Assembly (NCBI GenBank): GCA_036439915.1
Contig: GCA_036439915.1_3065.1
Source: a phage
DNA length: 64,000 nt
Reading direction: 5' to 3' (one strand)
Numbering within the stretch: position 1 is the stretch's first letter; each line of letters starts with the position of its first letter. The translations under genes were made by a program, and so were the position numbers. The notes beneath the pieces were generated by a model. The model was not told the origin of the DNA. It searched no databases and was given only the letters and a program-made list of their open reading frames with translations. Shown piece after piece: positions 5,616 through 52,507 of the stretch.

Positions 5616-6218
5616 TTATAGATTAAATCTTTCAAAATCAAGAGTATAGATAGTGTATGTTGAATACTTTTTATACTCATATCTATCTGCAATTCTAAAT
5701 ACACTTCCAGCTGGTATCATTACTTCTTGTTCATCTGAAACTAATTCCATATTACGATAACGATGACTATCCGGAAACTTAAAGTTTGGATTGTATTCTT
5801 TACAGCGTAGAGCTTTTATAGCATACTCCTGGAAATTGAATACCATAGGAGCTTTGAATTCAAAAATAACCTGTGTGTTATACTCTAAACCGGAAGCAAA
5901 ATGTAGAGCTATATTTTTATCATATGAAGCTGATACTACTTTATCAAATGTAATAATATCAATTCCTTGATTTAACACTTGCTTAGTCTCGACTGGAACA
6001 CCTCTCCAAAGAGGTTTATCGTTTGGTTCCAAACGAGATTTGATTATTTCATTTAACCAAGTATGGTCATCTGGTTTGTTGGTAATACAATGAATTAAAA
6101 GTTCAATTTCAGATAAATTAAACCCTTCAGAAAGTAATTCTTCACGAATAGAAGCACGCACCGATGCATCCATTGATTTTATTTTAAAATCTTTTAGTTG
6201 CATTACTGAGTATTTCAT
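5616..6218 (-). CDS. modA: ADP-ribosyltransferase ModA
   Basis: 200 aa, R (LWRGV), S-x-S and EQE-type ART motifs; same size as T4 ModA; adjacent paralog. Confidence 0.7.
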   Translation of the reverse strand: MKYSVMQLKDFKIKSMDASVRASIREELLSEGFNLSEIELLIHCITNKPDDHTWLNEIIKSRLEPNDKPLWRGVPVETKQVLNQGIDIITFDKVVSASYDKNIALHFASGLEYNTQVIFEFKAPMVFNFQEYAIKALRCKEYNPNFKFPDSHRYRNMELVSDEQEVMIPAGSVFRIADRYEYKKYSTYTIYTLDFERFNL

Positions 6219-6838
6219 TCAACTACCTCAATATCATAAACTTTAAATGTTCCAAATGAATCGTGTAATTTTTCTTTTGAAATAGAAGTTATTTTATACT
6301 TTCCAATTGGAATCATCCATTCTTGTTCACGTACAATCATCATTAAGTTATCAGTACGTTCTGAATCTAATCCATCAGTATCTTCATATGTATACTTAAA
6401 TTCAGTATTAGGAGAAGAAAGTATAATATCGCTGATATGGTCAGAATAATTAAAAGCTTTATCAGTTTTTAAGCGAAATATTATTTCAGTGAAATACTCA
6501 ACATAAGAAAAACCACATGCTGTGTGCAAACTAGTAGTAAATGAATCTACTCTGTTCGTTGAAAACACTTCTCCAACTTGTAAATCTTTAATGAGTTCTT
6601 TTGTCGATTTTGATATACCACGATATAGCTGATAAGGCGATTTAGTTAAATGCTTTTTAACGATTTTATTCAACTGCCGATGAAGAGCTTCATTCTTTTT
6701 GGCTTCCATACATTGCCAAAGAACAGACTGCTCAAAGTCAGTAAATTTTTCACAGACTTTTTTATACATATCATATTGAAAATCAACGCTTTCAGCTTTT
6801 ATAGATAACTGTTCAACATCTGCAAGATTAATAATCAT
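6215..6838 (-). CDS. modB: ADP-ribosyltransferase ModB
   Basis: 207 aa, YRGIS and EQEWMIP motifs; same size as T4 ModB; overlaps modA by ATGA. Confidence 0.7.
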   Translation of the reverse strand: MIINLADVEQLSIKAESVDFQYDMYKKVCEKFTDFEQSVLWQCMEAKKNEALHRQLNKIVKKHLTKSPYQLYRGISKSTKELIKDLQVGEVFSTNRVDSFTTSLHTACGFSYVEYFTEIIFRLKTDKAFNYSDHISDIILSSPNTEFKYTYEDTDGLDSERTDNLMMIVREQEWMIPIGKYKITSISKEKLHDSFGTFKVYDIEVVE

Positions 6839-50941: not shown

Positions 50942-50950
50942 ATCACCTTC

Positions 50951-51136
50951 TTAAAGCGTATTCACATAAGCTATTAATTCATTTTCTTTCTTATCAAACC
51001 GATCAGCAAATTCTTCCTGCTGTTCGGGAGATAGCGGGCCGTATTCATCATAAAAGGTGTTTGCTTCTATATGCTCATCTAGAAGTTCATGGATAAGCTC
51101 AAACAATTTATCTTTTTGTTCTTTACTCAGACTCAT
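50951..51136 (-). CDS. hypothetical small protein
   Basis: 61-aa acidic ORF. Confidence 0.4.
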   Translation of the reverse strand: MSLSKEQKDKLFELIHELLDEHIEANTFYDEYGPLSPEQQEEFADRFDKKENELIAYVNTL

Positions 51137-51302
51137 ATATTAATTTCCAGGAGTTTTAAAATAATTCGCTTTTGCTTAAATATTTCCATAGTTAAATGAC
51201 CAGTATCTTTTTGACCGATTCCAATGGCAAAACCTTTATTAACAGCGAGTTCAATTAAATTATCAAGCTCACGTAACACTTCGTATTGTAACTCAAAATT
51301 AT

Positions 51303-51530
51303 TCATTTTGGTTTACCTTCTTTAACGAAATCAGGATAAGGATAAAATCCTGAATAAAATCCTTCACCTTTATGATTGATGCATCCTTTATTAGAACAAT
51401 AGCACCAATAATCGAAATCACAAGCCATTTCATCGTTGCATAAAGCAAAAACAACAGGCCACTTACACTTTTCACAGTGGGCATTTTTAAGAATACTAGT
51501 TTGGCTCATAACCATGTAACCTTTAAGCAA
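51303..51530 (-). CDS. Cys-rich small protein (putative zinc binding)
   Basis: 75 aa, CEKC...C...C...CYCSNKGC. Confidence 0.45.
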   Translation of the reverse strand: MLKGYMVMSQTSILKNAHCEKCKWPVVFALCNDEMACDFDYWCYCSNKGCINHKGEGFYSGFYPYPDFVKEGKPK

Positions 51531-51718
51531 TATTCTTCTACATGTTGTTTACGACCTTTCTTATCAATAAAGGTATATTCAACGAATGTTCCAATGTAGT
51601 CTTTATCTACATCATGTGGACTATTAATTGGACATTTAGTACGGCAAATGCGTTCCCATTGACGAATAATTACTGCTTTGTTTTTAGGATCAAACGGATG
51701 TGGGTAATGCACTTTCAT
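51506..51718 (-). CDS. hypothetical small protein
   Basis: 70-aa ORF. Confidence 0.4.
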   Translation of the reverse strand: MKVHYPHPFDPKNKAVIIRQWERICRTKCPINSPHDVDKDYIGTFVEYTFIDKKGRKQHVEEYCLKVTWL

Positions 51719-52169
51719 AATCCACCACTATTAAATCAATATCAGGAGTAAACATGTCGATTAATTTAGAAACCTTATCCCAATCGCCGCCAGCAATACC
51801 ACAACCTATGCGTGGAATGTAAATTACCGGTTTAAACAAAAGGGTTTCTGCCTGTAGATTTAATTCTATCATGCAGTTTACTAAAGCACCATAATCAAGA
51901 TTAGGACCTGGTTCGTATTGCGTATACAAGTTATAACATATGCCAAAACCATTAGGTTTATGTTTAAAAACAATAGACATATCGCCTAATTTATCACGAG
52001 AACCGTACTCAGTAGTGGTTTTATCTATTTCTAAAATTTTGGGATAGGCTCTTGCTAATTGACCAGCTACACCACTGCCCATTGTATGAAAACAGTTACA
52101 CCCATGCGCAATAATATTACCTTCAAGAAAGAGGGCGACAATATCGCCCTTGATATATTTTACAATCAT
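51690..52169 (-). CDS. macro-domain protein (ADP-ribose binding/processing)
   Basis: 159 aa; GCNCFHTMGSGVAG and IPRIGCGIAGG macro-domain signatures. Confidence 0.6.
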   Translation of the reverse strand: MIVKYIKGDIVALFLEGNIIAHGCNCFHTMGSGVAGQLARAYPKILEIDKTTTEYGSRDKLGDMSIVFKHKPNGFGICYNLYTQYEPGPNLDYGALVNCMIELNLQAETLLFKPVIYIPRIGCGIAGGDWDKVSKLIDMFTPDIDLIVVDYESALPTSV

Positions 52170-52507
52170 CTAGTACTCAATCCTCGATTATAAGAATCTA
52201 CCAAACGGTCAACCATTGAATGACAAGCGGCTTTATCTTTTTCCTCCGCAACTGAACATTCTAAGGTATTCCACTTTTTAGCATATCGTTTTAACAATGT
52301 ATCGTTTTTGTATCTGCTTGATTTATCTCTTTCTCCGTCTTTATATGCATATATTAATTTCTGCGCAAATTCAGCTTGGCATGCTTTATTTTTCCCGCAA
52401 TAATCCGCTGCAGTACGGTTTACATACTCTCTAATTTCAGTATATGATGTATCTGCTAACGCAGAAAATGAAATTAATCCTATACATAAAACCAAAATTT
52501 TAGTCAT
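52166..52507 (-). CDS. secreted Cys-containing protein (vs position)
   Basis: 113 aa with N-terminal signal peptide MTKILVLCIGLISFSALA. Confidence 0.45.
   Translation of the reverse strand: MTKILVLCIGLISFSALADTSYTEIREYVNRTAADYCGKNKACQAEFAQKLIYAYKDGERDKSSRYKNDTLLKRYAKKWNTLECSVAEEKDKAACHSMVDRLVDSYNRGLSTR

What the first reader, a model, noticed from the sequence alone, without database searches (positions are those of the whole stretch)
51690..52169. Macro-domain protein in a phage that also encodes ADP-ribosyltransferases
ORF 51690..52169 has the macro-domain signatures GCNCFHTMGSGVAG and RIGCGIAGG (ADP-ribose binding or hydrolysis). Together with ModA/ModB (5616..6838) the phage encodes both writers and a potential eraser or reader of ADP-ribosylation. 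A macro domain could also counter host ADP-ribosylating defences or degrade ADP-ribose-derived signals.
Basis: partly seen in the sequence, partly recalled or inferred. Interest (0 to 1): 0.45.

Follow-up and report, generated by a model that had tools for sequence, protein, structure and literature searches.

The report
T4-type phage macrodomain gene tk.4 (AdfM)
This ORF is the T4-family gene tk.4, a small macrodomain enzyme that a 2025 preprint showed protects phage T4 from the bacterial DarTG2 defence (which ADP-ribosylates phage DNA), so the finding is real but already known.

Summary

An A1pp/macro domain in tk.4 was reported in 2006. In November 2025 a transposon screen named T4 tk.4 adfM, because its knock-out sensitises T4 to DarTG2. 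The headline idea of a writer/eraser pair with ModA/ModB is not supported.

Three points go beyond the literature I read:
- The family has an invariant Gln where DarG and TARG1 have the catalytic Lys. This matches SCO6735, a proven thymidine-ADP-ribose DNA hydrolase. PhiKZ AdfM is Lys-type.
- It fails every DarG membership test.
- This allele is only 58% identical to the tested T4/T2/T6 allele. It sits as a sharply bounded cassette between flanks 96-100% identical to T4, and it has not been tested.

Verdict: already known, low interest.

The parts
51690..52169 (-). tk.4 / adfM-type CDS, 159 aa, a stand-alone macrodomain
52181..52185 (-). Shine-Dalgarno GAGGA, 11 nt upstream of the ATG and inside the 3' end of vs. 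The tk.4 start and the vs stop overlap as ATGA (52166..52169).
   Evidence: Read directly from the sequence. Translational coupling is an inference.
52062..52103 (-). Motif GCNCFHTMGSGVAG (residues 23-36). It holds Asn25 (distal-ribose contact, codon 52095..52097) and the first Gly-rich loop, G31-S32-G33. His22 lies immediately upstream.
   Evidence: Translation. H22, G23, N25, C26, G33 and A35 are invariant in 103 family members. N25 aligns with the DarG/SCO6735 Asn. By eye it also matches the position mutated in PhiKZ AdfM N23A. The N-terminal half of gp104 is left unaligned, so that last equivalence is by inspection.
51918..51920 (-). Codon CAA for Gln84, at the position of the catalytic Lys of TARG1 (K84) and DarG (K80) and of Gln85 in SCO6735
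   Evidence: hmmalign to the family profile. Profile-to-PDB alignments. Gln in 103 of 103 family members. SCO6735 Q85A is inactive (PMC9411070).
51786..51812 (-). Motif RIGCGIAGG (residues 120-128), the second, diphosphate-binding Gly-rich loop. Ala126 occupies the position of TARG1 Asp125.
   Evidence: Translation. The loop is nearly identical to SCO6735 RIGCGLAGG and BT1257 RIGCGLAGG. It is the family consensus, whereas T4 has RIGAGIGKG.
51690..52050 (.). Diverged cassette. The C-terminal three quarters of tk.4 is 45-65% identical to T4 DNA, between flanks that are 96-100% identical.
   Evidence: Sliding identity of a MAFFT alignment of the window against T4 NC_000866. Protein identity to T4/T2 is 58% and to T6 57%.
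5616..6838 (-). modA (5616..6218) and modB (6215..6838), ADP-ribosyltransferases.
   Evidence: ORFs of 200 and 207 aa. PHROG 832 at E=9e-34 and 9e-42.

Best explanation
The ORF is this phage's copy of the T4-family gene tk.4 (named adfM in T4). It is a 159-aa stand-alone macrodomain of the TARG1/ALC1-like class. It is expressed with the other prereplicative genes of the regB-vs.1-vs-tk.4 block. The most likely mechanism runs as follows. When the host carries a DarTG2 toxin-antitoxin defence, the DarT2 toxin ADP-ribosylates thymidines in single-stranded phage DNA and blocks replication. Tk.4 binds the ADP-ribose through Asn25 and its two glycine-rich loops and hydrolyses the ribose-thymine bond, restoring the DNA. 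The chemistry is probably SCO6735-like: Gln84 positions the distal ribose and a water-mediated step does the cleavage. It is probably not the Lys-dependent chemistry of DarG/TARG1. Shown here: domain identity, fold, conserved residues and orthology. Shown by others for the T4 allele: genetic protection from DarTG2. Inferred: hydrolase activity of any Tk.4 protein, its mechanism, and the transfer of function to this 58%-identical allele.
For: Orthology: same slot between tk.3 and vs as T4 tk.4. 58% identity over the full length with no gaps.
T4 genetics: tk.4 was the only significant hit in a T4 transposon library on DarTG2 cells, and the knock-out is DarTG2-sensitive (preprint). T2 and T4 stay DarTG2-resistant without adfN and adfA (PMC11825919).
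Active site: H22, N25, N80, Q84, G122, G124 and W130 are invariant in 103 homologues spanning 37-96% identity. Q84 aligns with SCO6735 Q85.
SCO6735 precedent: it removes DarT-placed ADP-ribose from thymidine faster than DarG, rescues E. coli from DarT, and is killed by Q85A (PMC9411070).
Biochemical precedent for a phage macrodomain against DarT2: PhiKZ AdfM (PMC13309987).
The window's diphosphate loop, RIGCGIAGGDW, is the family consensus and nearly identical to that of SCO6735.
Against: - No Tk.4-family protein has been assayed biochemically in anything I could find. The T4 evidence is a preprint with a knock-out phenotype only. I saw no complementation and no catalytic mutant in the text I read.
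- The tested allele (T4; identical in T2, 98.7% in T6) is only 58% identical to this one and differs in the diphosphate loop.
- Gln at the catalytic position also occurs in the ALC1 macrodomain lineage. From my own knowledge that lineage binds poly-ADP-ribose without hydrolysing it, so Gln84 alone does not prove catalysis.
- Tk.4 lacks the extended 'mobile loop' that the SCO6735 authors link to its high DNA activity.
Confidence: 0.7

Rival explanations
1. Tk.4 neutralises DarT2 mainly without catalysis. It would either bind the toxin directly ('interaction-inhibition') or bind and shield ADP-ribosylated DNA. On this view the two divergent alleles track different DarT2 variants.
For: Catalytically dead SCO6735 Q85A, DarG K80A and TARG1 K84A all still inhibit DarT in vitro, SCO6735 most strongly (PMC9411070). 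The catalytic Lys and Asp of TARG1 are absent here. The gene shows a sharply bounded, strongly diverged allele inside near-identical flanks. That pattern would be expected if a protein-protein interface were under diversifying pressure.
Against: Every residue that lines the ADP-ribose site is invariant across homologues down to 37% identity, including Q84, which is essential for SCO6735 catalysis. Tk.4 lacks the C-terminal DarT-binding domain of DarG: it matches only positions 2-138 of the 338-position DarG model. Cassette-like replacement is common in this part of T4-like genomes; the neighbouring tk.1-tk.2 region is also replaced. The divergence therefore needs no arms race.
Confidence: 0.1
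2. Tk.4 works on small ADP-ribose derivatives rather than on DNA. Examples are a Poa1p-like ADP-ribose-1''-phosphate phosphatase (the RefSeq T4 annotation), an O-acetyl-ADP-ribose deacetylase, or a degrader of ADP-ribose-derived immune signals.
Against: The only phenotype reported for a tk.4 mutant is sensitivity to DarTG2, which acts on DNA. The 'phosphatase' labels are name transfers from the A1pp domain, not tests. The C-terminal half aligns far better with SCO6735/BT1257/TARG1 than with Poa1p. This activity could co-exist with DNA de-ADP-ribosylation and so is not exclusive.
Confidence: 0.1
3. One reading: Tk.4 is the eraser or reader that partners the phage's own ADP-ribosyltransferases (Alt, ModA, ModB). 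It would reverse or read their marks on RNA polymerase, ribosomal proteins or RNAylated proteins.
For: The same genome encodes ModA and ModB. Macrodomains with arginine specificity exist; Legionella MavL is cited in PMC13036486. TARG1-class enzymes, SCO6735 included, also cleave some protein-linked ADP-ribose on Glu/Asp.
Against: ModA and Alt modify arginine (PMC8120803). No member of the TARG1/DarG/SCO6735 class is reported to cleave Arg-ADP-ribose in the papers read. The genes are 45 kb apart and not co-organised. Tk.4 homologues occur in more than 2,700 phage records from many genera; I did not check whether those phages carry Mod/Alt homologues. In T4, tk.4 insertions were depleted specifically when DarTG2 was present.
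Confidence: 0.05

Closest known systems
T4 Tk.4 = AdfM (anti-DarT factor Macrodomain), bioRxiv 10.1101/2025.11.20.689424
   Same: Same gene slot between tk.3 and vs. Same length class (155 vs 159 aa). 58% identity with no gaps. The first 36 residues are nearly identical. All family-invariant residues are shared (H22, N25, D49, N80, Y82, Q84, G122, G124, W130).
   Different: The C-terminal three quarters is a diverged cassette at 45-65% DNA identity. The diphosphate loop is RIGCGIAGGDW here and RIGAGIGKGNW in T4; the window form is the family consensus and T4 is the outlier. There is a four-residue C-terminal extension that overlaps tk.3 by 29 nt. Only the T4 allele has been tested.
Streptomyces coelicolor SCO6735 (PDB 5E3B) and Bacteroides BT1257 (PDB 2FG1/2AFC): orphan ALC1/TARG1-like macrodomains
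   Different: About 25-29% identity. Tk.4 lacks the 5-6-residue longer 'mobile loop' of SCO6735/BT1257. It has family-specific invariant residues (C26, D49, Y82) that are absent from them. It is viral rather than cellular.
DarG antitoxin of DarTG2 (PDB 5M3I, 5M31, 7OMU)
   Different: Catalytic Lys80 is replaced by Gln84. There is no C-terminal DarT-binding domain. NCBIfam DarG scores 27.7 bits against a cut-off of 250. There is no adjacent darT. Identity is 19-23%.
PhiKZ gp104 AdfM (Cell Rep 2026, PMC13309987)
   Same: A phage-encoded stand-alone macrodomain that counters DarTG2. Removal of DarT2-placed ADP-ribose from DNA was shown in vitro.
   Different: PhiKZ AdfM carries the DarG motifs FPTKDNW (Lys-type) and PPLGCANGGL. 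It therefore belongs to the DarG subclade, while Tk.4 is Gln-type. The shared name covers two different lineages. PhiKZ AdfM is imported into the phage nucleus, and T4-like phages have none.
Human TARG1/OARD1 (PDB 4J5R) and yeast Poa1p (PDB 6LFQ)
   Same: Top Foldseek hits (E=2.5e-10 and 1.1e-9). Shared His22 equivalent, Thr83 and the PRIGCG loop.
   Different: The TARG1 catalytic dyad K84/D125 is Q84/A126 here. Poa1p is a small-molecule phosphatase with a longer C-terminal half that aligns poorly.

Membership tests
Macro domain superfamily (Pfam PF01661) | Profile score above Pfam's gathering threshold over the full domain | tested here: met
   33.1 bits against a cut-off of 22; profile positions 2-117 of 118.
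Macro domain superfamily (Pfam PF01661) | Three-layer alpha/beta/alpha fold with a central mixed sheet | tested here: met
Macro domain superfamily (Pfam PF01661) | ADP-ribose-binding residues: N-terminal Asn, GxG loop 1 and Gly-rich loop 2 | tested here: met
   N25, G31-S32-G33 and G122-C-G124-I-A-G-G are present and invariant or nearly so in 103 homologues.
ALC1/TARG1-like macrodomain class | Closest structural and sequence neighbours are TARG1, DarG, Poa1p and SCO6735/BT1257 rather than MacroD-, PARG- or macroH2A-type domains | tested here: met
DarG antitoxin (NCBIfam NF048014, equivalog) | Score at or above the curated cut-off | tested here: not met
   27.7 bits against 250.
DarG antitoxin (NCBIfam NF048014, equivalog) | C-terminal DarT-binding domain | tested here: not met
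   The protein is 159 aa and matches only model positions 2-138 of 338.
DarG antitoxin (NCBIfam NF048014, equivalog) | Catalytic lysine (Lys80) | tested here: not met
   Gln84 occupies the aligned column, in 103 of 103 family members.
DarG antitoxin (NCBIfam NF048014, equivalog) | Encoded next to a darT toxin gene | tested here: not met
   The neighbours are vs and tk.3.
SCO6735/BT1257 subclass of ALC1-like macrodomains | Gln at the position of the TARG1/DarG catalytic Lys | tested here: met
   Q84 aligns with SCO6735 Q85 and the BT1257 Gln.
SCO6735/BT1257 subclass of ALC1-like macrodomains | Mobile loop about five residues longer than in TARG1/DarG (PMC9411070) | tested here: not met
   BT1257 and SCO6735 carry a 5-6-residue insertion after the Gln relative to the Tk.4 profile. 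Tk.4 has the short loop, as in TARG1/DarG.
SCO6735/BT1257 subclass of ALC1-like macrodomains | Hydrolysis of thymidine-linked ADP-ribose on ssDNA | not testable with these tools
   Needs an enzyme assay.
Tk.4/AdfM of T4-like phages (anti-DarTG2 factor) | Orthologous position and full-length homology to T4 Tk.4 | tested here: met
   Between tk.3 and vs. 58% identity over 155 aa without gaps, E=4e-70. Flanks are 96-100% identical to T4.
Tk.4/AdfM of T4-like phages (anti-DarTG2 factor) | Required for phage growth on DarTG2-expressing hosts | not testable with these tools
   Shown only for the T4 allele. No report was found for this allele.
Poa1p-type ADP-ribose-1''-phosphate phosphatase | Residues probed in Poa1p structures (H23, S30, F152) | tested here: inconclusive
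   H22 and T29 correspond to H23 and S30 by inspection of the alignment. The mutant names come only from PDB titles. The C-terminal half aligns weakly, and I did not read the Poa1p paper.

The most novel reading that the evidence does not exclude
The two deeply diverged tk.4 alleles that circulate among otherwise near-identical Tequatroviruses may not be functionally equivalent. The window type was found in 319 phage records at >=90% identity and the T4 type in 224. The cassette swap could reflect selection for a different target range. That range might be different DarT2 variants reached through direct toxin binding, or other base-linked ADP-ribose marks such as uracil-ADP-ribose on RNA. If so, the Gln-type Tk.4 family would be a mechanistically distinct, independently recruited anti-DarT lineage alongside the Lys-type PhiKZ AdfM.
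Probability: 0.15. Interest if true: 0.5.

Novelty: already known. Interest (0 to 1): 0.2.

Why it matters
Phage-encoded ADP-ribose erasers are part of the arms race with bacterial toxin-antitoxin defences that ADP-ribosylate DNA. The gene and its role are already described for T4, so this finding mainly confirms an annotation.

Two small points may be useful to specialists:
- Tk.4 is a Gln-type (SCO6735-like) macrodomain, not a DarG-like Lys-type one. The two proteins now called AdfM, from T4 and PhiKZ, are therefore different lineages and probably use different chemistry.
- The most common allele in sequenced Tequatroviruses, the one in this window, is not the one that was tested.

Tried and rejected
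- **DarG co-option.** I considered filing the protein as a co-opted DarG antitoxin, as the preprint's wording suggests. I rejected this. The NCBIfam DarG score is a tenth of the cut-off. There is no DarT-binding domain, no catalytic Lys and no darT neighbour. A bacterial homologue I looked up is an orphan gene.
- **MAFFT alignment.** MAFFT alone placed a two-residue gap that hid the Gln/Lys equivalence. hmmalign to the family profile and the HMMER profile-to-PDB alignments resolved it. PhiKZ gp104 stayed misaligned by two residues around FPTK, and I read that region by eye.
- **CmdTAC.** I looked for a link to CmdTAC mRNA ADP-ribosylation. The Nature paper mentions macrodomains only in its reference list.
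- **Companion anti-DarT genes.** adfN is T4 gene 30.3, which in the T4 map lies far outside this window (plus my own knowledge of the map). I did not confirm adfA (61.2).
- **Promoter and terminator scan.** It found no more promoter-like sites than shuffled sequence (25 against 26.1), so it gives no evidence on expression.
- **Not done.** I did not run the large representative-protein search or a metagenome scan, because the answer did not depend on them.

Full report
**Observation.** The ORF exists exactly as described. It spans 51690..52169 on the minus strand, starts with ATG and encodes 159 aa. Both quoted motifs are there: GCNCFHTMGSGVAG is residues 23-36 and RIGCGIAGG is residues 120-128. 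The start codon overlaps the stop codon of the upstream gene as ATGA. A GAGGA Shine-Dalgarno lies 11 nt upstream. Pfam Macro (PF01661) matches over nearly the whole model at 33.1 bits against a gathering score of 22. PHROG 335 matches at E=1.8e-71. ModA and ModB at 5616..6838 are also real; both match PHROG 832, 'RNA polymerase ADP-ribosylase'.

**Where the window comes from.** The region is 99.6% identical to Escherichia phage JLBYU24, a Tequatrovirus. More than 400 T4-like phages match at 95% or better. In JLBYU24 the ORF is annotated 'putative macro domain protein' and lies between a tk.3-like gene and vs. In T4 itself the same slot holds tk.4, annotated 'phosphatase; contains A1pp phosphatase motif'. 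The neighbours are confirmed: RegB (PF10715, E=1e-68), Vs.1 (SLT domain), Vs (PHROG 1256) and Tk.3 (DUF7202).

**What is already published.**
- An A1pp/macro domain in tk.4 orthologues was reported in 2006 (PMC1524935).
- In November 2025 the HIDEN-SEQ preprint reported tk.4 as the single significant hit when a T4 transposon library was grown on DarTG2-expressing E. coli. A clean knock-out sensitised T4 to DarTG2. The authors renamed the gene adfM and proposed, without biochemistry, that it removes ADP-ribose from DNA.
- Earlier work had shown that T2 and T4 stay DarTG2-resistant without adfN and adfA, and predicted a further factor (PMC11825919).
- A separate 2026 paper used the same name, AdfM, for PhiKZ gp104. 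It showed in vitro removal of DarT2-placed ADP-ribose from DNA (PMC13309987).
- The Tk.4 protein has been detected in the T2 proteome.

**Catalytic residues.**
- The ADP-ribose-binding elements are all present and invariant or nearly so across the family: Asn25, G31-x-G33 and G122-x-G124-x-A-G-G.
- The catalytic Lys of TARG1 (K84) and DarG (K80) is replaced by Gln84 in all 103 family members. TARG1 Asp125 is replaced by Ala126.
- This is exactly the pattern of Streptomyces SCO6735 (Gln85) and Bacteroides BT1257. I recovered the 5E3B sequence and checked that its numbering reproduces the published V25, K34, Q85 and K89.
- SCO6735 hydrolyses DarT-placed thymidine-ADP-ribose faster than DarG or TARG1. 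It rescues E. coli from DarT and is inactivated by Q85A. Its authors propose a water-mediated mechanism in which the Gln positions the distal ribose (PMC9411070).
- The missing Lys therefore does not argue against hydrolase activity. It places Tk.4 in the Gln-type branch.
- PhiKZ AdfM, by contrast, has the DarG motifs FPTKDNW and PPLGCANGGL. The two 'AdfM' proteins belong to different subclades. None of the papers I read discusses this, though the searches were not exhaustive.
- Tk.4 lacks the longer mobile loop of SCO6735/BT1257.

**Not a DarG.** The NCBIfam DarG equivalog scores 27.7 bits against a cut-off of 250 and covers only the macrodomain part of the model. There is no DarT-binding domain, no Lys80 and no darT neighbour. 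A bacterial homologue (Pelagimonas, 40% identity) is an orphan gene with unrelated neighbours. This fits an origin from orphan SCO6735-like genes better than from an antitoxin, but I did not test that with a phylogeny.

**This allele is not the tested one.**
- The window protein is 58% identical to T4 Tk.4. T2 is identical to T4 and T6 is 98.7% identical to it.
- A sliding-window DNA comparison with T4 shows 96-100% identity in tk, tk.3, vs, vs.1 and regB. Identity falls to 45-65% across 51690..52050 and rises to 84-93% over the first ~40 codons. This is a sharply bounded cassette replacement inside the gene.
- In the phage collection, 319 records carry the window-type allele at 90% identity or more. 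The T4 type appears in 224 records at 90% or more, and a further 159 sit at 80-90%.
- The window's diphosphate loop, GCGIAGGDW, is the family consensus. T4's GAGIGKGNW is the outlier.
- Functional transfer to this allele rests on orthology and on retention of every invariant residue. It has not been tested.

**Mechanism and rivals.**
- My best explanation (confidence about 0.7) is an early-expressed, stand-alone hydrolase. It removes DarT2-placed ADP-ribose from thymidines in single-stranded phage DNA, using SCO6735-like chemistry.
- Toxin neutralisation by binding is possible, because catalytically dead class members still inhibit DarT in vitro. The strict conservation of the active site and the lack of a DarT-binding domain argue against it as the main mode.
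- A small-molecule role (Poa1p-like phosphatase, or degradation of immune signals) rests on transferred names and on a general argument. It does not explain the DarTG2 phenotype.
Those enzymes modify arginine. No member of this macrodomain class is reported to cleave that linkage in the papers I read. The genes are 45 kb apart.

**Verdict.** The feature is already known, so interest is low. The residual points are the Gln-type active site, the two lineages that share the name AdfM, and the untested majority allele.

Noticed in passing
window 50950..51500: The stretch between tk and tk.3 is replaced relative to T4, at 23-48% identity with many gaps. It encodes a DUF7438 protein (50951..51136), a 57-aa ORF with no family (51133..51306) and a 'Phage zinc binding domain' protein (PF23895, 51303..51515). 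T2 and T6 have ORFs of similar sizes here. It is a second variable cassette right next to the tk.4 one.
   Followed up: partly
window 52131..52151 (inside tk.4, codons 7-13): An 8-bp G+C-rich inverted repeat (AGGGCGATATTGTCGCCCT) followed by a T-rich run was flagged as terminator-like on both strands. It lies in the conserved 5' part of the coding sequence and may be chance.
   Followed up: no
window 51690..51718: This tk.4 allele has a four-residue C-terminal extension, so its 3' end overlaps the start of tk.3 by 29 nt. In T4 the overlap is 4 nt. This fits a recombination boundary at the tk.3/tk.4 junction.
   Followed up: partly
L001/L003 (JLBYU24 annotation of the matching region): Many product names in the closest GenBank record look like spurious name transfers. 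Examples: tk.3 as 'ABC transporter ATP-binding protein', a run of nrdC-region genes all called 'putative thioredoxin', and small mobD-region ORFs called 'molybdopterin-guanine dinucleotide biosynthesis protein MobD'. They should not be used as evidence.
   Followed up: no
window 52166..52507 (vs): The gene immediately upstream, vs, appears translationally coupled to tk.4. The HIDEN-SEQ preprint reports it as the T4 gene most strongly depleted in minimal medium. The two neighbours are thus both conditionally important, under different conditions.
   Followed up: no
literature, not sequence: The name AdfM has been given independently to T4 Tk.4 (Gln-type) and to PhiKZ gp104 (Lys-type, DarG-like). 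The text of the 2026 PhiKZ paper held no mention of T4, of the HIDEN-SEQ preprint or of SCO6735. A separate 2026 preprint describes T2 tk.4 as a 'putative thymidine kinase', which is a mislabel taken from the gene name.
   Followed up: partly
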